Below are positions 50,238 to 56,788 of a DNA stretch of 64,000 bases, piece after piece. Where the stretch lies: assembly GCA_963700315.1 (NCBI GenBank), contig CAVOXC010000011.1, positions 288,308 to 352,307 on the forward strand, in the 5' to 3' direction. A model generated the notes under the pieces. It did not search any database. It saw nothing but the letters and a program-made list of their open reading frames with translations, and was not told where the DNA came from. Position 1 is the first letter of the stretch; the number at the start of each line of letters is the position of its first letter. The position numbers and the translations under genes were made by a program. This DNA comes from an uncultured Acidobacteriota bacterium (GTDB lineage Bacteria; Acidobacteriota; Thermoanaerobaculia; Multivoradales; JAGPDF01).

Positions 50238-50609
50238 GTGGGCGGTCTCGTCGTGGTCACCACCGTCGGAAACGAGGAGCAGGCCAACCTGCTCGCCTCG
50301 GAGCTCGTCTCGCGCCGTCATGCCGCCTGCGTCAATATCGTCCCGGGTCTGCGCTCGGTCTACCGCTGGCAGGGCAAGATCTGCCGCGACACCGAGTTCA
50401 TGTTGATCGTCAAGACCAGCGAGCGCGAGTACCCGCTGGTCGAGCAGGCGATCCAAGAGCTGCACAACTACGAGCTCCCCGAGATCCTCGCCTTCAAGGT
50501 CTGCAAGGGGGAGAAGAACTTCCTCGCCTGGATCGAGGGCTCGCTCGACAAGGACGCCCCCTTCTCCGACGAAGAAGAGCGCGACGGCCTCGACGAGACG
50601 AATTACTGA
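50238..50609 (+). CDS. cutA: Divalent-cation tolerance protein CutA
   Basis: VVVTTVGNEEQANLLASELVSRRHAACVNIVPGLRSVYRWQGKI...YELPEILAF. GTG start. Confidence 0.88.
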   Translation: MGGLVVVTTVGNEEQANLLASELVSRRHAACVNIVPGLRSVYRWQGKICRDTEFMLIVKTSEREYPLVEQAIQELHNYELPEILAFKVCKGEKNFLAWIEGSLDKDAPFSDEEERDGLDETNY

Positions 50610-51166
50610 AGCGCCCTGCCCCGTAATCGCAGCCGAAGCCTCGCGAGCGCACGCGTGAGGATCTTCTTGGCGTTGGCGTGCGAGATACCCATCCGGGTCG
50701 CAACCTCGAGCACTGTGCAGCCATCGATGTAGCGCAACCGAAGAGCTAGCGCGGCGGTAGGCGTCAGCAAACGGATCGCTCCTTGGGCGGCGATGCGAGA
50801 AACGATGGGAGTGTCGCGCCCCCGCAGGCGATGGAGCAAAGCGGCATCGAGAGCCAGCTCGCGCCGCCGAGCCACCGCTGCGCGCACTAGCTTCCTGCGC
50901 ACCACGGCGACAAACCAAGCGACCGGGTTCTCGATTCCGGCCTGTCGTTCGATCCAGAGAAGGTAGGTCGACTGGACAGCGTCTTCGAAATCGGGATCGG
51001 AGGCCGAGATCCCGAATCCACGGATCGAGGCGGCGCAGCGGGCGACGACATCGGCGCAGCCGGTCCGGTCGATCGACTCGAGCGCGCACTCGAGCGAGCC
51101 TCCTGCGCGCGGAGAGACCTCGCCGCTCGAGGCCAAGCAGTCGAGCTTCTCGTTCCTCCCCGTCAC
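50603..51166 (-). CDS. ECF-type sigma-70 family RNA polymerase sigma factor
   Basis: The region 2-like segment is DFEDAVQSTYLLWIERQAGIENPVAWFVAVVRRKL and the region 4 HTH is LRLRYIDGCTVLEVATRMGISHANAKKILTRALARLR. The proposed start is GTG 51166, with AGGAGGA about 9 nt upstream. The stop overlaps the cutA stop. Confidence 0.75.
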   Translation of the reverse strand: MTGRNEKLDCLASSGEVSPRAGGSLECALESIDRTGCADVVARCAASIRGFGISASDPDFEDAVQSTYLLWIERQAGIENPVAWFVAVVRRKLVRAAVARRRELALDAALLHRLRGRDTPIVSRIAAQGAIRLLTPTAALALRLRYIDGCTVLEVATRMGISHANAKKILTRALARLRLRLRGRALQ

Positions 51167-51357
51167 GCCGGAGCATCCTCCTGTCCCCGAAAGGTCCGCT
51201 GCCGGCACTATAAGTACGGGTGGCCGGAGTTGTCTATCGAGAGCGTCTTCTCGGTCCGGCCTGGAGAGTCGATCGTCACAGGTTCGCTTCGTCACGCCGG
51301 TGCCTTTCGGGAGCTTGCTGAGAAACTGAAGCAGAGAAACTAGAAAGGAGAGCAAGG

Positions 51358-51552
51358 ATGAGAGTCAAGTTGAGCTGGTCGGGTATCGCTTTGACGTTGC
51401 TCGCGTTGGCGAGTTTGGTCCTCGGGGCGCCGTCGGGTGCGAAGCCACCGAGCTGTGGTTCGTGCCGCGACGGCACGCTGAACATGCAGCAGCAGAGTTG
51501 TCCGGGGTCGGCTTCCGACTGCACGGAGTGCACGGTCTGCGAGCCGGGTTGA
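51358..51552 (+). CDS. Small exported Cys-rich peptide (64 aa precursor, 7 Cys in ~37-aa mature part)
   Basis: AAGGAG lies 7 nt upstream of the ATG. The Sec-type signal is MRVKLSWSGIALTLLALASLVLGAPSGA and the mature part is KPPSCGSCRDGTLNMQQQSCPGSASDCTECTVCEPG. The codons have clearly lower GC than the flanks. Confidence 0.6.
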   Translation: MRVKLSWSGIALTLLALASLVLGAPSGAKPPSCGSCRDGTLNMQQQSCPGSASDCTECTVCEPG

Positions 51553-51593
51553 GGATGACGTAGCGGAGCTCGCGACGGCTACAGGGTATCGGT

Positions 51594-52736
51594 GTGACGA
51601 GCCGAATTCTGCTTGTGATCCTCGCGTGGGGAGCCCATGCGGCGTGGCTGCCCGCCACCTGTGCGGGCTCCCGGCGCGCGGCGGCCGCACCCTGCCGTGG
51701 GGCGAACCTCGACCCGCCACCGGGTTACTTCTTCACGGGCGCCTGGCTGAGCGATGGCGAGGCGCTGGTCCTTCCGGACGTGGCGGATGGAGCGCTCGCG
51801 ATCTACGCGGCCCCGACCGGGGTGCGCACCGAGCGGAGGATCCGGCCCGGCCGGAAGCTCTTCGACTACTCCCGTCCGGGCAGGATCGCTCCGCGTCCGG
51901 GGGGGTACTTGCTGGAGGACGGCAACCTGCGCTTCCTGAAGCTCGACCCGAGACTGGAGCCCGGAGGCCTATTGGATCTCGCGACGACGTTGGAGCGGGG
52001 AGTGGACTGGGAGGCCGCGCCGTTCGCGTGGGCACCGTACCGTGGCGCTCTGGCCGGCTTCGGGGATTTCCGCAGCGCCGGCGGAGAGTGGAAGACGGGG
52101 GTCTTCGTCGTCCGAGATGGACCGCGGCTCGAGCTCGACGTGCTTCTCGAGACGCCCTCGACGCGTGCCCGGATCGTCCCGTACCTGAGCGATACGCCGC
52201 TCCTCGCCTCGGATGGCAAGACCCTCTACTTCCTCGACCTGCTGGATCGGCGAGCCATCCTCCGCTTCGAAGACGGCACGGTCGAAGAGACCTTCCGACT
52301 CGACCCCGCCTTCGCGGATTCCAGCCGCCTGCCCCCCCCGGGGGGAAGAGCCGCGATCGAGCAGATCTACGCGGCGCTCTCGCGCTCGAACCTCGCCGTT
52401 CAGCTCCATGCCGCGGACGGGCTCCTCTTCCTTCTGCTACGCGCGCAGGGATCGCTAGGCGAGCGGCTCTGGTTCCTCGAAGTCGTCGATCCCGCGCTCC
52501 GCCGAAGCCTCGGCCGCCTCAGGCTCCCCACCGACGCGGACCACCTCACGATCGTGCCCGGGCGCAACGCTTGGGCGCTGCTCGAGAAGGGCCCGGTTCG
52601 ACCCGGTCCGCGCTTCGAGTGGGCGCGTCTCCGTCTTGTTCCCGGGAGCCGGATCCAGGGCGCGCTCAGCGAGCTCCGTAGAGGAAAGGGCGGCGAGCTC
52701 GCGCCGTGCGACGCGCAGTCGCTTACTTCGCGCTGA
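51594..52736 (+). CDS. Exported hypothetical protein (~380 aa), beta-rich
   Basis: N-terminal signal-like MTSRILLVILAWGAHAA. Repeated short beta-strand/turn pattern (LVLPDVADGALAIY, YLLEDGNLRFLKLD, LLASDGKTLYFLDL, LLFLLLRAQG). No motif recognised. Confidence 0.55.
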   Translation: MTSRILLVILAWGAHAAWLPATCAGSRRAAAAPCRGANLDPPPGYFFTGAWLSDGEALVLPDVADGALAIYAAPTGVRTERRIRPGRKLFDYSRPGRIAPRPGGYLLEDGNLRFLKLDPRLEPGGLLDLATTLERGVDWEAAPFAWAPYRGALAGFGDFRSAGGEWKTGVFVVRDGPRLELDVLLETPSTRARIVPYLSDTPLLASDGKTLYFLDLLDRRAILRFEDGTVEETFRLDPAFADSSRLPPPGGRAAIEQIYAALSRSNLAVQLHAADGLLFLLLRAQGSLGERLWFLEVVDPALRRSLGRLRLPTDADHLTIVPGRNAWALLEKGPVRPGPRFEWARLRLVPGSRIQGALSELRRGKGGELAPCDAQSLTSR

Positions 52737-53206
52737 CGGTCTCATGGGTCGCCGTAGGCGCCTGTTCCGGGCCCGCGACGCGATCCACGAGAGCCGGTCT
52801 CTTTCCTGACTCGCATTCCGCCGAGCTCGAAGCGAGGCTGACGCTGGACGAAGAGCTCGCGGTCTTCTATTGGCCCGCGGTCGAGCTATGCGATCCCGCG
52901 GCGGTCGCGGCGGCAGTCGCGCTCGAGAAGCTCGCCCGCGAGGAGCAGACCATTCGCGTAACCACCATAGTGCCGAAGGGCACGAGAAATGCGATCGAGC
53001 GCCTCGGCGTCCCCTACCCGGGGGAGACCCTCGAAGTTCCTCCGCGCCAATACCACGCGGCGGGTTGGCTCGTGCCGCTTCCTCGGGTTGAGGTTTGGAG
53101 TCGCGACGGAAGATTGATGCTGCTGAAGGCGATTCCGCCCAACCCGAATCAAGCCACGCAGCTCGGGGAGGAGATCCGATGGTTTCTCGCCATTCCCGTC
53201 ATGTGA
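52706..53206 (+). CDS. Lipoprotein, possibly a degenerate thioredoxin-like fold
   Basis: Lipobox ALTVSWVAVGAC. VFYWPAVELCDP sits where redoxins carry WCxxC, and only one Cys is present. It overlaps the neighbouring genes at both ends. Confidence 0.45.
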   Translation: MRRAVAYFALTVSWVAVGACSGPATRSTRAGLFPDSHSAELEARLTLDEELAVFYWPAVELCDPAAVAAAVALEKLAREEQTIRVTTIVPKGTRNAIERLGVPYPGETLEVPPRQYHAAGWLVPLPRVEVWSRDGRLMLLKAIPPNPNQATQLGEEIRWFLAIPVM

Positions 53207-55962
53207 AGCGAATCCACCGTGCCCTCCTGTGGTTCGCTCTTGGTCTCGCACCTCCGCTGGTCCCGGGAGCCGATGCGCTCGGAGGTCCCGTCTTCGTGGA
53301 CCGTCGTGGCGATCCGGTCGCTGGCGCTCGGATATTCTTGTTCGACCGAGTGGAGGAGAACGCAAGCCTGATGGCACGTTCCGAGGCCTACTTCGAGACT
53401 CGAACCGGATTCGACGGACGCCCCGTCGATCGACTCCCGATCTCGGAGGGCGTCCTCGTCGTGGTGGATGACGGGCGACACGCACCCTGGGAATGGCGCG
53501 AGCGCGAGGATCTGCCGGAACGGGTCGTCTTCCGCGAAGGAGCATCTCTATCGGGTACCTTTCGGCTCGTCGCCGGTCCAGAAGGCTCGATCCCGCTGCT
53601 CGCGGCCTGCGCGAGCTGGGAGAAGTCCTATGAAGAGTGGCGGAGAACGGTCAGGTTCGAGCGCTGTCGTTTCGAACAGGAGAAGAATCGGTTTCGATTG
53701 TCCGGAATACCCGAGACGCCAGTCATGGTCGAGCTGCGCGCACCGCTGGCGTTACCGTGGCGACGCGAAGCGCGAGCCAACGAAGACCTCCAGGCTCTGC
53801 TGGAGCCTGGAATCCTGATTCAAGGCCAAGTCGAGGACGGTCGTGGGGCGCCCATCGCCGGAGCCGAGATACGCGCGGCCAGCGGAGAGGCCGATGGCAC
53901 CGCAATCTCGAATCACAACGGCGCTTTTGCGCTCGCCGTGCGCAGCCTGCCGATAGAGATGGTTGCTCAGGCGGATGGGTATCGCCGCCTGAGCCTGGTT
54001 GCCCAGGCCGAGCGCCTCGACCGCGAGAAGAAGATCCGGATTCGACTCGATCCCGCATTCGTGGTCCGGGGCGAGCTGCGGGCAACGTGCGGCCACTTAC
54101 CCGACCCCATTCGGCTCGACCTGGGCTCGGTCGAGGGGGGTACGAGCCCGAAGTCCCAGGCGCTGTCGCTGACGGCCGAGCAGGGGAAGCTTCGCCTCGA
54201 GGTCGAGCGCCCCGGCCGCTACACGGTCAGAGTCGGCGGAAGAGGGGTTCGCTGGAGCGACCCGATTCCATTCGAGGCGGAAATGCAAGGGGTCTGGGAT
54301 CTCGGACTCATCGAGCTCGGATGTGGTGCCGGGGTTCGCGGCCGCGTCGTCTCGGCCGCATCCGGCGAGGCGTTGCCGCGAGTACGTCTCCTTCTTCGCC
54401 CGAAGGGAACAGGCATCCTGGAGCAGCTGCGATTTCACGAGGCCCATCGGACCTCGACGGGCGCGAGCGGCGAATTCGAGATCCTCGGCGCGCGCTCGGG
54501 AGCGTATGTCCTCAGAGCGGCCGGGCCGGGAGGTCTCCGGCGCGACGAGCCTATCGAGCTGGAGCAGGACGAAGTCGTCGATCTGGGAACGCTCCGCTTG
54601 GCACCCCCGGTCCTCGTCTTGGGGCGGGTCGAGTCCAGGTCCGGGAAACCAAGATCCGGCGTCCTCGTCGAAGCGCTGGATTCTCAAGGGACGCTCCTTG
54701 AGCCCTTGGCCCTTGCGACGAGCACCGACGACGGGAGCTTCGAGTTTCCCTTGTCCGCCGGAAGATACCTCCTGCGAGCGCGAAGAGGGCGAACCCTGGT
54801 GGCCCAGGAGGTCGATGTCCCCGAGGGCGAGGAATCGATCGAGGTCGCCCTGACTACCCGGGAGGTACGCCTGCTCGGAATTGTCCGGTCGGCGGGCGAA
54901 GCGGTACCCGGTGGCTGGGTGGAATGGGTGGATGCCGCCGATCCGGGCCTGCGCCGGGGGAAGCTCGTCCTGCAGTCCGATTCCGCCGCCGCGGGCGGAT
55001 CGTCAATTCACGGTCTGCCGGAATCTCGGACGGGAACCGAAGTTCGGGCGGACGGGACATTCGAGATCGAAGAGGCCGCCGCGGGCCGCGGGTGGCTCGA
55101 CTACGAGAGCCGGGCGGGGAGGAGACACCGACAGCCGGTCGACCTTCTGGACGTGACCGAGACATTCGTCGTCGTGGACCTCGACGCCCCGCCCCTCGAG
55201 GGCCTCGTCGTGGAGGAAAGCTCGGACTCAGGAATCGAGGCGACCGTTGCCCTTCTGTCGGAAAGCGGCGGGCGCGTTGCCGCATCGCCCTCGAGCCCGT
55301 TGTCGGGCTTCTCGTTCGAGAATGTGGAGTCGGGAAAGTATCGAATCGAGGCGCGCGCGGAGGACTATGCAACGGGCTCTTGGCCGATCGAGCTCGCCGA
55401 CGAGAGGTCGCCGCTCCGGCTGGCTCTCGAGAGGGCAGAGAGCGCGTCGATTCGAGTCCGTTTGCGACGAGAGGGAGGGGAGCCCGTCTCCTGGGCGGCG
55501 GTCGCACTGCTGACCGAGTCCGGCGCGGTCGTGCGGTCGCTCCACACCAATCCCGCGGGGGAGATCAAGTTCGTTGAGCTCGCGGCTGGACGCTACCTTG
55601 TGGCGTGGTCGGATGCCCTAGCCGGTGCCGGTGCGTCGGGGCCGTTTGCGGTGACCGCCGGGGAGCCCGCAGAGGCGGACCTTCTCCTGGGGCGAGGAAG
55701 TGACCTCTTCGTCGAGTGTCCGGCCGAAAGTTGTGGAGGCCACCTACTGCAGTGGGCTCAGGTGCTGACGAGCTCCGGAGTGGACATCGGCTTTCTCCTG
55801 AGTGGCCTGGGCTCGGCGCGAAGCGTGTCGTCCAACGGGGCGTTGCGGCTCGGGAGGCTCTCTCCTGGTGCCCCCTACCGGGTGAGGCTCTCTATCGGGG
55901 ACTACCAGGGCGATTTCACGGTGATGCCGGGCGGCGGCGCGATCACGCTTCATCTTCCGTGA
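53179..55962 (+). CDS. Large exported protein built from ~8 carboxypeptidase-regulatory-like (Ig-like beta-sandwich) repeats
   Basis: ATG 53179 after GGGGAGGAG. Signal-like ALLWFALGLAPPLVPGADA. Recurrent G.V.D..G.P..GA.V...........G.F.L..L..G.Y.L repeats (for example IQGQVEDGRGAPIAGAEIRA, VRGRVVSAASGEALPRVRLLL, VLGRVESRSGKPRSGVLVEAL). Confidence 0.7.
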   Translation: MVSRHSRHVKRIHRALLWFALGLAPPLVPGADALGGPVFVDRRGDPVAGARIFLFDRVEENASLMARSEAYFETRTGFDGRPVDRLPISEGVLVVVDDGRHAPWEWREREDLPERVVFREGASLSGTFRLVAGPEGSIPLLAACASWEKSYEEWRRTVRFERCRFEQEKNRFRLSGIPETPVMVELRAPLALPWRREARANEDLQALLEPGILIQGQVEDGRGAPIAGAEIRAASGEADGTAISNHNGAFALAVRSLPIEMVAQADGYRRLSLVAQAERLDREKKIRIRLDPAFVVRGELRATCGHLPDPIRLDLGSVEGGTSPKSQALSLTAEQGKLRLEVERPGRYTVRVGGRGVRWSDPIPFEAEMQGVWDLGLIELGCGAGVRGRVVSAASGEALPRVRLLLRPKGTGILEQLRFHEAHRTSTGASGEFEILGARSGAYVLRAAGPGGLRRDEPIELEQDEVVDLGTLRLAPPVLVLGRVESRSGKPRSGVLVEALDSQGTLLEPLALATSTDDGSFEFPLSAGRYLLRARRGRTLVAQEVDVPEGEESIEVALTTREVRLLGIVRSAGEAVPGGWVEWVDAADPGLRRGKLVLQSDSAAAGGSSIHGLPESRTGTEVRADGTFEIEEAAAGRGWLDYESRAGRRHRQPVDLLDVTETFVVVDLDAPPLEGLVVEESSDSGIEATVALLSESGGRVAASPSSPLSGFSFENVESGKYRIEARAEDYATGSWPIELADERSPLRLALERAESASIRVRLRREGGEPVSWAAVALLTESGAVVRSLHTNPAGEIKFVELAAGRYLVAWSDALAGAGASGPFAVTAGEPAEADLLLGRGSDLFVECPAESCGGHLLQWAQVLTSSGVDIGFLLSGLGSARSVSSNGALRLGRLSPGAPYRVRLSIGDYQGDFTVMPGGGAITLHLP

Positions 55963-56064
55963 CAAGCGGACGTGTTCCAGTTGAACAGAAGCAACGACTA
56001 AAGGTGGCCGAGGCGCTCTCCCATCTCGTGGCACTGGCGCAATGCCGCGCGGAGGCGACTCGAG

Positions 56065-56254
56065 CGAGCCCGAGCGCGAGGCGATCGGGCCGGCGATCCA
56101 CGAGCCGCGCGTCCACGAGCTCCCCGAGATCCTCGCCTTCAAGGTCTGCAAGGGGGAGAAGAACTTCCTCGCCTGGATCGAGGGCTCGCTCGACAAAGAC
56201 GCCCCCTTCTCCGACGAAGAAGAACGCGACGGCCTCGACGAGACGAACTACTAG
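56065..56254 (+). pseudogene. Orphan duplicate of the cutA 3' end
   Basis: 56115-56254 equals 50470-50609 with 5 mismatches (the stop changes from TGA to TAG). More diverged homology continues upstream to about 56065. The N-terminal two thirds of CutA are missing. Confidence 0.85.
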
Positions 56255-56337
56255 AGCGCCTGCTCGCCGATCGTGGGTGCCCCCGCGCCAGCTTGCCTGG
56301 CGTTCTGCCGGCGGCGCCCTCTCCGCGCCCCATTCAT

Positions 56338-56439
56338 GTCGTCCTGAGCGCAGCGAAGGACCTTGCGTGATCGGCGAGGAGCCACCGTCCTCGCTTCTTC
56401 AGGCGAGGGCGCGAGATCCTTCACTTCGTTCAGGATGAC
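56338..56439 (+). repeat. Copy C of the ~100-bp hairpin element
   Basis: Nearly identical to 35578-35679. Confidence 0.85.
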
Positions 56440-56535
56440 AGTGGGCAGGCGTTCAGGGTGACAACGGGCGCAGTTCCGGCTGACATCGGGGGGCGTTCAG
56501 GCTGACGTCGGAGGGCAATCAGGCCGACATCGAGC
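56440..56535 (+). repeat. Four tandem ~23-bp units
   Basis: The units GGCGTTCAGGGTGACAACGG, GCAGTTCCGGCTGACATCGG, GGCGTTCAGGCTGACGTCGG and GCAATCAGGCCGACATCGAG. Single related units follow hairpin copies A and B. Confidence 0.65.
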
Positions 56536-56538
56536 AGG

Positions 56539-56788
56539 GGCTTGTGTCTCGCCCTGGCAGGAACGAGACGCGGTGTGCGTGGGTGCCTTGCCGGAGGAAG
56601 CTTGAGGGCTCGCATGCTGAAGGATGCGAGCGCCTGAGTAGCGGCCGCGAGACCGAACGCAGCCGGCCGCTCCAAGAGACTCCAGGCGGACGGCGGTTCC
56701 GCAGGCAAGGGACCCACGCACGCCGCCCCGCCACCAGAGGCGCCCAACAACCGAATCAGCGTGTATTCAGAACGAGCGCAGCGAATCC
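56539..56788 (-). repeat. X element, inverted copy
   Basis: Reverse complement of 35294-35543 at about 90% identity by eye. Confidence 0.8.

What the first reader, a model, noticed from the sequence alone, without database searches (positions are those of the whole stretch)
51167..51552. 64-aa exported Cys-rich peptide divergently paired with the island's ECF sigma factor, in the position usually held by an anti-sigma factor
The peptide has a strong RBS (AAGGAG, 7-nt spacer). It has a Sec-type signal (MRVKLSWSGIALTLLALASLVLGAPSGA) and a ~37-aa mature part with 7 cysteines arranged CxxC...C...CxxCxxC (KPPSCGSCRDGTLNMQQQSCPGSASDCTECTVCEPG). The 190-bp divergent spacer carries a direct repeat, GAGAAACT-N6-GAGAAACT (51320-51341), immediately upstream of the RBS. 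It also has an AT-richer patch (CACTATAAGTAC, about 51206-51217). ECF sigma genes are normally co-transcribed with a membrane anti-sigma factor, and none is recognisable here. The peptide could be a secreted signal or bacteriocin, a metal or redox sensor, or an unconventional sigma regulator. It is superficially similar to Cys-rich RiPP precursors such as SCIFF, but it has a Sec signal and no maturase nearby.
Basis: partly seen in the sequence, partly recalled or inferred. Interest (0 to 1): 0.6.

Follow-up and report, generated by a model that had tools for sequence, protein, structure and literature searches.

The report
Secreted six-cysteine peptide, propeller-operon partner
The 64-residue ORF is a real, conserved gene for a small exported, probably disulfide-bonded peptide that opens an undescribed four-gene envelope operon found only in Thermoanaerobaculia (Acidobacteriota), and nothing links it to the neighbouring sigma factor beyond its position in this one genome.

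Summary
The ORF (51358-51552, +), its AAGGAG ribosome-binding site, its signal-like N-terminus and the GAGAAACT repeat are all present. It has six cysteines, not seven.

It is a real gene. A profile of 17 relatives finds 39 further small proteins (61-99 aa) among 1.84 billion representatives. Of 53 unique members, 41 have six cysteines. Three have lost Cys36 and Cys58 together, which points to disulfides.

In 300 genomes of the order, the peptide occurs in 22 and lies directly upstream of a 380-aa protein in 19 of 21 hits outside the window. That protein models as a beta-propeller, belongs to no known family and occurs in 111 genomes.

A 166-aa lipoprotein with a thioredoxin (TlpA/ResA/DsbE-like) fold occurs in 15 genomes, 14 of which have the peptide. 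A roughly 930-aa CarboxypepD_reg-repeat protein completes the cassette.

The ECF-type sigma factor has no ortholog in those 300 genomes and is adjacent to no other cassette examined. The anti-sigma reading is therefore not supported.

Best reading: an exported, disulfide-knotted small partner of the propeller, matured by the thioredoxin-like lipoprotein. Its biochemical function is unknown. It is a new lineage-specific family of moderate interest.

The parts
51358..51552 (+). Gene for the 64-aa pre-peptide. Residues 1-28 form the signal peptide (51358-51441). The mature part is about 36 aa, KPPSCGSCRDGTLNMQQQSCPGSASDCTECTVCEPG, with six Cys.
   Evidence: GC3 is 0.80. Homologs appear. C33, C36, C48 and C55 are invariant in the 17-sequence alignment A6.
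51345..51350 (+). Shine-Dalgarno AAGGAG, 7 nt before the ATG.
   Evidence: GGAG-type sites stand at the same place upstream of most homologous peptides.
51320..51341 (+). Direct repeat GAGAAACT-N6-GAGAAACT in the 5' leader. Function unknown.
   Evidence: An equal repeat arises in 2.9% of shuffles. No Rfam match. No stable fold, z +1.5.
51186..51311 (.). 9-nt inverted repeat CCCGAAAGG (51186-51194) and CCTTTCGGG (51303-51311), placing the same word upstream of each divergent gene. Candidate operator, untested.
51207..51236 (-). Sigma-70-type promoter TAGACA-N18-TATAGT for the sigma gene.
   Evidence: 10 of 12 matches, 0.0 expected in shuffles.
50603..51166 (-). Divergent, monocistronic ECF-type sigma factor of 187 aa, with GTG start and AGGAGG at 51176-51181. 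A ~47-aa N-terminal extension carries C10, C27, C37 and C44. The gene is convergent with cutA.
   Evidence: No ortholog in 300 genomes of the order.
51594..52736 (+). 'p380': exported protein, probably a lipoprotein (C23), modelled as a beta-propeller of an undescribed family. C34 and C372 are conserved. Motif LPTxAxH..xPGxxxWxxxE.
   Evidence: No Pfam, NCBIfam or PDB sequence match. AF2 model pLDDT 89.9; best PDB folds are generic propellers with TM ~0.45. Found in 111 of 300 genomes. All 66 motif-scan loci are Thermoanaerobaculia-type Acidobacteriota.
52706..53206 (+). 166-aa lipoprotein (lipobox VGAC20) with a thioredoxin fold. C62 is invariant: C-D-P-A here, CxxC in one subgroup. PRxE motif at the usual cis-Pro place.
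   Evidence: Alignment A5. AF2 pLDDT 86.2. All listed Foldseek hits (best 50) are thioredoxin-superfamily folds: TlpA/ResA/DsbE/CcmG-type oxidoreductases, peroxiredoxins and Sco1, with 3gl3 at TMt 0.67 and rmsd 2.8 A. Found in 15 of 300 genomes, 14 with the peptide.
53179..55962 (+). About 927-aa exported protein made of repeated CarboxypepD_reg (transthyretin-like beta-sandwich) domains. The ATG at 53179 is the likely start; the ORF is open from 53095. Three Cys pairs, two of them conserved.
   Evidence: PF13620, 5.9e-46, 5 stretches.. It follows p380 in 58 of the 74 examined loci that carry p380.
50418..50615 (+). Left copy of the 198-nt direct repeat (3' end of intact cutA) that bounds the 5.6-kb island.
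56063..56260 (+). Right copy of the repeat (a cutA 3' fragment, 89% identical).
   Evidence: In the closest relatives cutA is followed directly by other genes.

Best explanation
The ORF encodes a Sec-exported pre-peptide. Its ~36-residue mature part probably folds into a compact module held by three disulfides, one of them most likely C36-C58.

It is the first gene of a four-gene envelope operon:
- the peptide;
- a lipoprotein beta-propeller (p380);
- a thioredoxin-fold lipoprotein;
- a CarboxypepD_reg-repeat protein.

The propeller plus repeat protein is the widespread core. The peptide and the thioredoxin-like lipoprotein are an accessory pair that travels with it.

The most likely mechanism is as follows. 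The thioredoxin-like lipoprotein forms or shuffles the peptide's disulfides through its invariant active-site cysteine. The folded peptide then acts in the envelope as a small subunit or ligand of the propeller and repeat-protein assembly. This layout resembles methylamine dehydrogenase, which has a propeller heavy chain, a disulfide-rich small chain and the thioredoxin-like MauD.

The ECF-type sigma factor next door came in with this genome's 5.6-kb island. It may transcribe the operon, but it is not part of the conserved system, and the peptide is not its anti-sigma factor.

Shown: the gene is real, the cysteine framework is conserved, the gene order is conserved, and the two folds are as stated.

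Inferred: export, disulfide pairing, the thioredoxin-peptide relationship and binding to the propeller.

Unknown: the biochemical activity.
For: Gene reality and family:
- An independent metagenome homolog has the same pattern, KPPGCGECREGRL...CLECTFCEPG, and the same three downstream genes.
- About 20 further peptides lie upstream of p380 homologs.
- The profile search gives 41 hits at E<=1e-3 in 1.84 billion representatives. Of these, 39 are 61-99 aa and match end to end.

Disulfides:
- Of 53 unique members, 47 have an even Cys count and 41 have six.
- P0025, P0042 and P0044 lack exactly C36 and C58 together.
- Spacing varies between subgroups.

Linkage:
- The peptide occurs in 22 of 300 genomes, single copy.
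- In 19 of the 21 hits outside the window, p380 lies directly downstream and co-oriented.
- The lipoprotein occurs in 15 of 300 genomes. All copies are adjacent to p380, and 14 of the 15 genomes have the peptide, against about 1 expected by chance. These genomes span six families of the order.
- Locus-level table: 10 cassettes have both peptide and lipoprotein, 22 have neither, and 1 has the lipoprotein only.

Folds:
- Propeller, pLDDT 89.9.
- Thioredoxin fold with the invariant Cys at the active-site position. It is CxxC in the subgroup whose peptides carry the CDxCGxxC pattern.

Sigma factor not conserved.

Operon layout: a 41-nt gap between the peptide gene and p380, then overlapping junctions.
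Against: - There is no direct evidence of transcription, translation, export, disulfides or any protein-protein contact.
- Co-folding could not be run.
- Operon co-inheritance among related genomes is not independent evidence of physical interaction.
- Most p380 and repeat-protein cassettes work without any peptide (22 of 41 arrays with adequate flanks), so the peptide is not needed for the core.
- In the window the thioredoxin-like protein has a single active-site Cys (CDPA), so it cannot complete a redox cycle alone.
- Eight peptide-positive genomes lack the lipoprotein: six with clear peptide hits (G071, G090, G146, G149, G183, G209) and two borderline ones (G177, G203).
- Six of 53 family members have odd Cys counts.
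Confidence: 0.55

Rival explanations
1. Unconventional sigma regulator. The peptide takes the place of an anti-sigma factor and controls the divergent ECF sigma factor, directly or through an envelope signal.
For: It is divergently adjacent to an ECF-type sigma factor that has no anti-sigma gene in its monocistronic unit. A 9-nt inverted repeat puts the same word upstream of both genes.
Against: - The sigma factor has no ortholog in 300 genomes of the order.
- No sigma-like ORF abuts the cassette in any other locus.
- The peptide is exported and lacks any anti-sigma domain.
- It is not co-transcribed with the sigma gene.
- ECF sigma factors that need no anti-sigma factor are known, for example CorE and CorE2 with Cys-rich extensions (PMC4937300). 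This sigma factor has its own N-terminal extension with four Cys.
Confidence: 0.05
2. Diffusible product: a Sec-secreted bacteriocin, toxin or signalling peptide. The downstream genes would serve immunity, reception or processing.
For: The peptide is small, exported, disulfide-rich and fast-evolving outside the cysteine frame. It has a patchy distribution and lies in an island. Bacterial secreted defensin-like peptides exist (PMC11561630).
Against: - It is always single copy and tied to one particular propeller gene.
- There is no exporter, immunity-type membrane protein or two-component sensor in the cassette.
- It lacks the CxxxC, GxC and CxC motif of cis-defensins (sequence).
- The mature window peptide is near-neutral to acidic: 2 K/R against 4 D/E.
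Confidence: 0.15
3. Metal- or cofactor-binding redox peptide. The cysteines (CxxC plus CP...CxxCxxC) stay reduced through the TlpA/ResA-like lipoprotein and bind Cu, Zn or an Fe-S-like centre.
For: TlpA, ResA and CcmG relatives are usually reductants that prepare cysteines for metal or haem attachment (established knowledge; fold match). The peptides give sub-threshold ferredoxin-motif matches, E 0.09-0.3.
Against: - C36 and C58 are lost as a pair in three members.
- The Cys count is even in 47 of 53 members.
- Cys spacing varies, and one Cys is relocated in subgroup D.
- The signal is Sec-type, not Tat-type.
- The window's thioredoxin-like protein has a single thiol.
Confidence: 0.15
4. RiPP precursor (SCIFF-, ranthipeptide- or methanobactin-like) that is heavily modified after translation.
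For: It is a short Cys-rich peptide. One relative gives a sub-threshold methanobactin match (E 0.32).
Against: None of the island's six ORFs matches a radical-SAM, MbnBC, cyclodehydratase or protease family in Pfam or NCBIfam. The Sec signal replaces a leader peptide. No NCBIfam SCIFF model matches.
Confidence: 0.03
5. Not a gene: a chance ORF in a GC-rich spacer.
For: A crude GC3-minus-GC2 gene caller preferred the antisense 85-aa ORF.
Against: Family-wide conservation of the signal peptide, the cysteine frame, the position and the RBS. GC3 is 0.80.
Confidence: 0.02

Closest known systems
Methylamine / aromatic amine dehydrogenase gene set (MauB propeller heavy chain, MauA disulfide-rich light chain, MauD thioredoxin-like accessory protein). 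Cited from my own knowledge.
   Same: It combines an exported beta-propeller, a small exported disulfide-rich partner and a dedicated TlpA/DsbE-like thioredoxin-fold protein in one operon.
   Different: The peptide is about 36 aa rather than about 125 aa, and the window's mature peptide has no Trp for a TTQ cofactor. There is no MauE, MauG or amicyanin. No Pfam or NCBIfam match to MauA, MauB or MauD. The resemblance is architectural only.
Extracytoplasmic thiol-disulfide oxidoreductases TlpA / ResA / CcmG / DsbE
   Same: The 166-aa lipoprotein has the same predicted fold and membrane anchoring. The conserved Cys sits at the active-site position, and one subgroup has CxxC.
   Different: No sequence-profile match to these families. 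The window protein is monothiol (CDPA). The client appears to be a private peptide rather than cytochromes or Sco.
YWTD propeller-EGF and sema-PSI-IPT modules of animal receptors. Cited from my own knowledge.
   Same: A beta-propeller is combined with a ~40-residue six-Cys knot and a stalk of Ig-like beta-sandwich domains.
   Different: Here they are three separate polypeptides, the Cys spacing differs, and there is no detectable homology. This is an analogy, not membership.
Bacterial cis-defensins (PMC11561630)
   Same: They are Sec-signal-bearing bacterial peptides with three disulfides and a patchy distribution.
   Different: The peptide lacks the CxxxC...GxC...CxC scaffold motif. It is genetically tied to a propeller operon, whereas defensin genes are described without such a set.
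ECF sigma / anti-sigma pairs, and anti-sigma-independent ECFs such as CorE and CorE2 (PMC4937300)
   Same: An ECF-type sigma factor lies next to envelope genes. The lack of an anti-sigma factor together with a Cys-bearing extension on the sigma factor recalls CorE-type self-regulation.
   Different: The extension is N-terminal, not a C-terminal CRD, and there is no CxC linker motif. The peptide shows none of the features of an anti-sigma factor.

Membership tests
[quoted passage not shown] | Co-transcribed with (usually downstream of) its sigma gene | tested here: not met
   The peptide is divergent from the sigma gene. The sigma gene is monocistronic and convergent with cutA.
[quoted passage not shown] | Cytoplasmic anti-sigma domain (zf-HC2, RskA or FecR type), with or without a membrane span | tested here: not met
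   No Pfam or NCBIfam match for the peptide or for 17 relatives. The only hydrophobic segment is a cleavable-type signal peptide.
[quoted passage not shown] | Co-conservation with orthologs of the sigma factor | tested here: not met
   No sigma ortholog in 300 genomes. The peptide is conserved next to p380 instead.
SCIFF / ranthipeptide-type RiPP precursor | Adjacent radical-SAM/SPASM maturase | tested here: not met
   None of the island ORFs matches a radical-SAM family.
SCIFF / ranthipeptide-type RiPP precursor | Match to the family model, and a leader peptide rather than a Sec signal | tested here: not met
   No NCBIfam hit at E<=10. The N-terminus is signal-peptide-like.
Bacterial cis-defensin (cysteine-stabilised alpha-beta) | CxxxC ... 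GxC ... CxC cysteine scaffold | tested here: not met
   The window peptide is C-x2-C-x11-C-x6-C-x2-C-x2-C, with no CxxxC and no CxC. The motif definition is from PMC11561630.
Methylamine dehydrogenase light chain (MauA) | Family-model match and two Trp residues for the TTQ cofactor | tested here: not met
   No Pfam hit. There is no Trp in the mature window peptide.
Thioredoxin-fold thiol-disulfide oxidoreductase (TlpA/ResA/DsbE-like), for the 166-aa lipoprotein | Thioredoxin fold | tested here: met
   AF2 pLDDT 86.2. All listed Foldseek PDB hits (best 50) are thioredoxin-superfamily folds, with 3gl3 at TMt 0.67 and rmsd 2.8 A.
Thioredoxin-fold thiol-disulfide oxidoreductase (TlpA/ResA/DsbE-like), for the 166-aa lipoprotein | CxxC active site | tested here: not met
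   The window has C62-D-P-A. Six of the 17 aligned relatives have CxxC (for example GCTVCD), and the first Cys is invariant.
ECF (group 4) sigma-70 factor, for the neighbouring gene | Sigma-2 and sigma-4 regions only, about 180-200 aa | tested here: met
   TIGR02937 scores 42.9 bits at a cut-off of 42.9. Sigma70_r4 gives 9.8e-9 and Sigma70_r2 is weak at 0.01. Length is 187 aa.
Sec-type signal peptide | n/h/c regions with a small-x-small cleavage site | tested here: inconclusive
   The layout is seen by eye in the window and across 53 relatives. No predictor was available and there is no experimental evidence.

The most novel reading that the evidence does not exclude
The peptide is the small, three-disulfide 'knot' subunit of a previously unknown envelope or surface complex restricted to Thermoanaerobaculia. 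The complex would comprise a lipoprotein beta-propeller, an Ig-like repeat stalk of ~900 aa and a private thioredoxin-like foldase. It would be a bacterial, multi-polypeptide counterpart of propeller-EGF or MADH-type assemblies, with a ligand-binding or catalytic role still to be found. In this genome it would be mobilised on an island with its own self-regulated, Cys-bearing ECF sigma factor.
Probability: 0.3. Interest if true: 0.65.

Novelty: new variant of a known kind. Interest (0 to 1): 0.45.

Why it matters
Three of the four proteins (the peptide, the propeller and the thioredoxin-like lipoprotein) belong to families with no Pfam, NCBIfam or PDB sequence relative. All three are confined to an uncultured but environmentally widespread acidobacterial class.

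The nested distribution gives a clean, testable case of a dedicated periplasmic oxidoreductase paired with one small disulfide-rich client. The propeller occurs in 111 genomes, the peptide in 22 and the thioredoxin-like protein in 15, with the last almost only where the peptide is.

It also adds a compact six-Cys scaffold to the few Sec-exported disulfide-rich peptides known from bacteria.

For annotation, it shows that a short ORF missing from the protein names available here is a real gene. It also shows that position next to an ECF sigma factor alone is a poor guide to function.

Tried and rejected
- The word-indexed protein search with the peptide found only the window's own protein, represented by the 61-aa copy on the noisy contig L017. 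Short divergent peptides share no 5-mers, so the family had to be reached through its neighbour gene.
- The six-frame search of 60 relatives with the single peptide gave mostly noise. One E 0.009 hit (G044) proved real through synteny.
- A second word-indexed search with a p380 alignment added nothing.
- The search for related loci failed on alignments A1 and A2, which had no conserved 7-10-column stretch. With A3 it found no relative in genome or metagenome contigs.
- These were replaced by a hand-built degenerate DNA pattern for the LPTxA...PG...W...E motif. It was specific on the loci already held and gave 66 loci.
- Pfam, NCBIfam and PDB sequence searches of p380, the lipoprotein and the peptides gave no significant match.
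- My first sigma query was one base out of frame and gave false negatives. This was corrected.
- Leader RNA: no Rfam family and no stable structure (z +1.5). A riboswitch or attenuator reading is rejected.
- I looked for an ECF-type promoter in the spacer by eye. None was convincing, and only a sigma-70-type promoter for the sigma gene was found.
- Conserved neighbours beyond the four genes: none are general. A PQQ-dehydrogenase-like gene recurs in 17 of the loci, judged by eye and not tested.
- Co-folding of the peptide with p380 could not be run with these tools.
Full report
**Observation**

- An ATG at 51358 opens a 64-codon frame that ends at TGA 51550-51552.
- AAGGAG (51345-51350) stands 7 nt upstream of the ATG.
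- GAGAAACT occurs twice (51320-51327 and 51334-51341).
- CACTATAAGTAC lies at 51206-51217.

There are three corrections.
- The peptide has six cysteines (C33, C36, C48, C55, C58, C61), not seven.
- The sigma gene on the minus strand starts at GTG 51166, preceded by AGGAGG at 51176-51181. The spacer is therefore 191 nt.
- The AT-richer patch is the -10 hexamer of a sigma-70-type promoter on the minus strand, TAGACA-N18-TATAGT. It matches 10 of 12 positions, with 0.0 such sites expected in shuffles. It therefore serves the sigma gene.

The 8-nt direct repeat is only marginally unusual: 2.9% of shuffled spacers contain an equal one. The leader matches no Rfam family and folds no better than shuffles (z +1.5).

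**Is it a gene?**

The frame has GC3 of 0.80. A word-indexed search of 5.8 billion proteins found only the window's own protein, represented by a 61-aa copy on a noisy contig of the same strain (L017). That contig is 97% identical over 5.3 kb with 58 gaps, so it is not independent.

Homologs were reached through the neighbouring gene. The 380-aa protein downstream (p380) has a 33%-identical relative on an independent metagenome contig (L018). Directly upstream of it lies a 67-aa ORF, MRFRSRVLW...EAKPPGCGECREGRLVWFVFECSNPLFPNCLECTFCEPG. It has the same signal-plus-six-Cys design and is followed by the same three genes. A weak six-frame hit in a genome of another family of the order (G044) likewise proved to sit in the same four-gene arrangement.

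**Extent of the family**

- A profile of p380 finds it in 111 of 300 genomes of the order.
- A degenerate DNA pattern for its LPTxA...PG...W...E motif was specific on the loci already held. Across one genome for each of 185,579 species it found 66 loci, all labelled as acidobacterial MAGs. Most are named Thermoanaerobaculia or Candidatus Multivorans, and the rest carry broader Acidobacteria/Acidobacteriota, Holophagales or Vicinamibacteraceae labels.
- Small signal-bearing Cys-rich ORFs lie directly upstream of p380 in about 20 of these loci. They align into one family in which C33, C36, C48 and C55 are invariant.
- That profile finds 41 proteins at E<=1e-3 among 1.84 billion representatives. 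Of these, 39 are 61-99 aa and match end to end.
- No member matches a Pfam family.
- In the 300 genomes of the order the peptide occurs in 22, always once. In 19 of the 21 hits outside the window, a p380 gene lies immediately downstream on the same strand.

**Disulfides rather than metal**

Of 53 unique members, 41 have six cysteines in the mature part, 3 have four and 3 have eight or ten. Only 6 have odd counts.

The three four-Cys members (P0025, P0042, P0044) have lost exactly the cysteines equivalent to C36 and C58, together. This is the signature of a disulfide pair. One subgroup (CDxCGxxC...GWxDCxGSPxxCxRxTVCG) lacks the C58 position and has an extra Cys four residues after C36. Spacing is otherwise variable.

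Together with the Sec-type signal, this favours a three-disulfide knot over a metal or Fe-S site.

**The neighbours**

- **p380.** It has no Pfam, NCBIfam or PDB sequence match. With a 60-sequence alignment it models confidently (pLDDT 89.9, pTM 0.87) as a beta-propeller. Its best PDB matches are generic propellers (xylonolactonase, YncE, SMP30; TM about 0.45). Many members start with a lipobox, and two cysteines (C34 and C372) are conserved near the two ends.
- **166-aa lipoprotein.** It has no sequence-family match either. Its model (pLDDT 86.2) has a thioredoxin fold. All 50 listed Foldseek hits belong to the thioredoxin superfamily: TlpA/ResA/DsbE/CcmG-type oxidoreductases, peroxiredoxins and Sco1. 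The best is DsbE 3gl3, with TMt 0.67 and rmsd 2.8 A. The alignment shows an invariant Cys at the active-site position. It is CxxC in six of the 17 aligned sequences and C-D-P-A in the window. A PRxE motif sits where the cis-proline is expected.
- **Last gene.** It encodes a protein of repeated CarboxypepD_reg beta-sandwich domains, 955 aa from the first possible start (TTG 53095) and about 927 aa from the likely ATG at 53179.

**Distribution logic**

p380 followed by the repeat protein is the common core: 58 of the 74 loci with p380 also hold the repeat protein. The peptide and the thioredoxin-like lipoprotein are an accessory pair.

Among 41 p380 arrays with adequate flanks:
- 10 have both;
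- 22 have neither;
- 4 were scored as peptide only;
- 1 has the lipoprotein only;
- the other 4 have no peptide, lipoprotein or repeat protein.

Genome-wide, the lipoprotein family occurs in 15 of 300 genomes, always next to p380. Fourteen of those 15 also have the peptide, against about one expected by chance. The exception sits at a contig end. The pair occurs in six families of the order. Related genomes are not independent samples, so this is strong co-inheritance and not proof of interaction.

**The sigma factor**

The minus-strand gene (50603-51166) is an ECF-type sigma factor on the threshold of recognition: TIGR02937 at 42.9 bits (cut-off 42.9), Sigma70_r4 at 9.8e-9 and Sigma70_r2 at 0.01. 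It has a ~47-residue N-terminal extension with four cysteines.

It is monocistronic and convergent with cutA. No island protein has an anti-sigma domain. In 300 genomes of the order its best relatives reach only 39% identity over the core (E 3e-14), so there is no ortholog. No sigma-like ORF abuts the cassette in any other locus.

It lies inside a 5.6-kb island bounded by a 198-nt duplication of the cutA 3' end. The island has lower GC3 (0.74-0.83) than cutA, which has 0.91 (flanking genes 0.88-0.95). The closest relatives have cutA followed directly by other genes. The pairing of sigma factor and peptide is thus a feature of this island only.

Anti-sigma-independent ECF factors regulated through their own Cys-rich extensions are known (CorE and CorE2, PMC4937300). 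This offers a simpler reason for the missing anti-sigma factor, though here the extension is N-terminal and untested.

**Mechanism proposed**

The steps shown are that the gene is real, that the Cys framework and gene order are conserved, and that the folds are a propeller and a thioredoxin fold.

The inferred steps are as follows.
- The pre-peptide is exported by Sec and cleaved after SGA28.
- The membrane-anchored thioredoxin-like lipoprotein forms or reshuffles its three disulfides, C36-C58 among them.
- The folded 36-residue knot acts as a small subunit or ligand of the lipoprotein propeller, which works with the repeat protein.

The closest architectural parallel is the methylamine dehydrogenase gene set (propeller MauB, disulfide-rich MauA, thioredoxin-like MauD; my own knowledge). 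No membership feature of that family is met. The biochemical activity of the module remains unknown.

**Rivals**

- Sigma regulator: about 0.05.
- Diffusible bacteriocin or signal: about 0.15.
- Metal or redox peptide kept reduced by the thioredoxin-like protein: about 0.15.
- RiPP precursor: about 0.03.
- Chance ORF: about 0.02.

**Limits**

- No signal-peptide predictor was available.
- No co-folding could be run.
- The structure models are predictions.

**Verdict**

What is there is the founding example, in this scan, of a lineage-specific six-Cys exported peptide family tied to a new propeller, thioredoxin-like and repeat-protein operon. It is of moderate interest. I confirmed the cutA duplication and tested the redoxin-like guess by fold prediction.

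Noticed in passing
window 50616-56260: A 5.6-kb island without an integrase lies between a 198-nt direct duplication of the cutA 3' end (89% identical). Its genes have GC3 of 0.74-0.83 against 0.88-0.95 in the flanks. In the closest same-genus genomes cutA is followed directly by unrelated genes.
   Followed up: partly
window 56321-56784: The stretch just right of the island belongs to a repeat family with more than 20 partial or whole copies (70-95% identity) on many contigs of the same genome, and short matches in one congener (G003). It looks like a MITE-like element.
   Followed up: no
window 50603-51166 (-), residues 1-47 of the product: The ECF-type sigma factor carries a unique N-terminal extension with four cysteines (C10, C27, C37, C44) and has no anti-sigma partner. 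It may be a self-regulated (redox or metal) sigma factor in the manner of CorE, but with the extension at the other end.
   Followed up: partly
L019 352-5456 and L020 4087-7639: Distant p380 homologs (about 28% identity) from other metagenomes are followed by large proteins with a repeat-rich N-terminal part (a faint Reg_prop match in L019). L020 ends in a TIR domain (PF13676). L019's C-terminal part was not identified. L020 has its own four-Cys small ORF upstream. This may be a signalling or defence-like offshoot of the family.
   Followed up: no
L058 2152-4719 (-) and L060 8969-11626 (+): Fusion proteins of 855-885 aa carry the p380 propeller at the C-terminus, behind an N-terminal region whose sequence looks helical-repeat-like. 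That region was not tested.
   Followed up: no
L094 1521-3491 and 16 other loci, most labelled Candidatus Multivorans: A ~656-aa lipoprotein lies upstream of peptide-less p380 arrays in 17 loci. Its N-terminus looks like a PQQ-dependent dehydrogenase (judged by eye). This may be no more than synteny among close relatives.
   Followed up: no
L073 5150-5335 and L117 5164-5355: Another kind of small exported ORF lies upstream of p380. It has a very dense Cys tail (for example ...VCCCMCAGYYCECCEVTP) that does not fit the six-Cys frame.
   Followed up: no
window 51186-51194 / 51303-51311: A 9-nt inverted repeat (CCCGAAAGG / CCTTTCGGG) places the same word upstream of both divergent genes. CCTTTC is also complementary to the GAAAGG of the peptide's ribosome-binding region.
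   Followed up: partly
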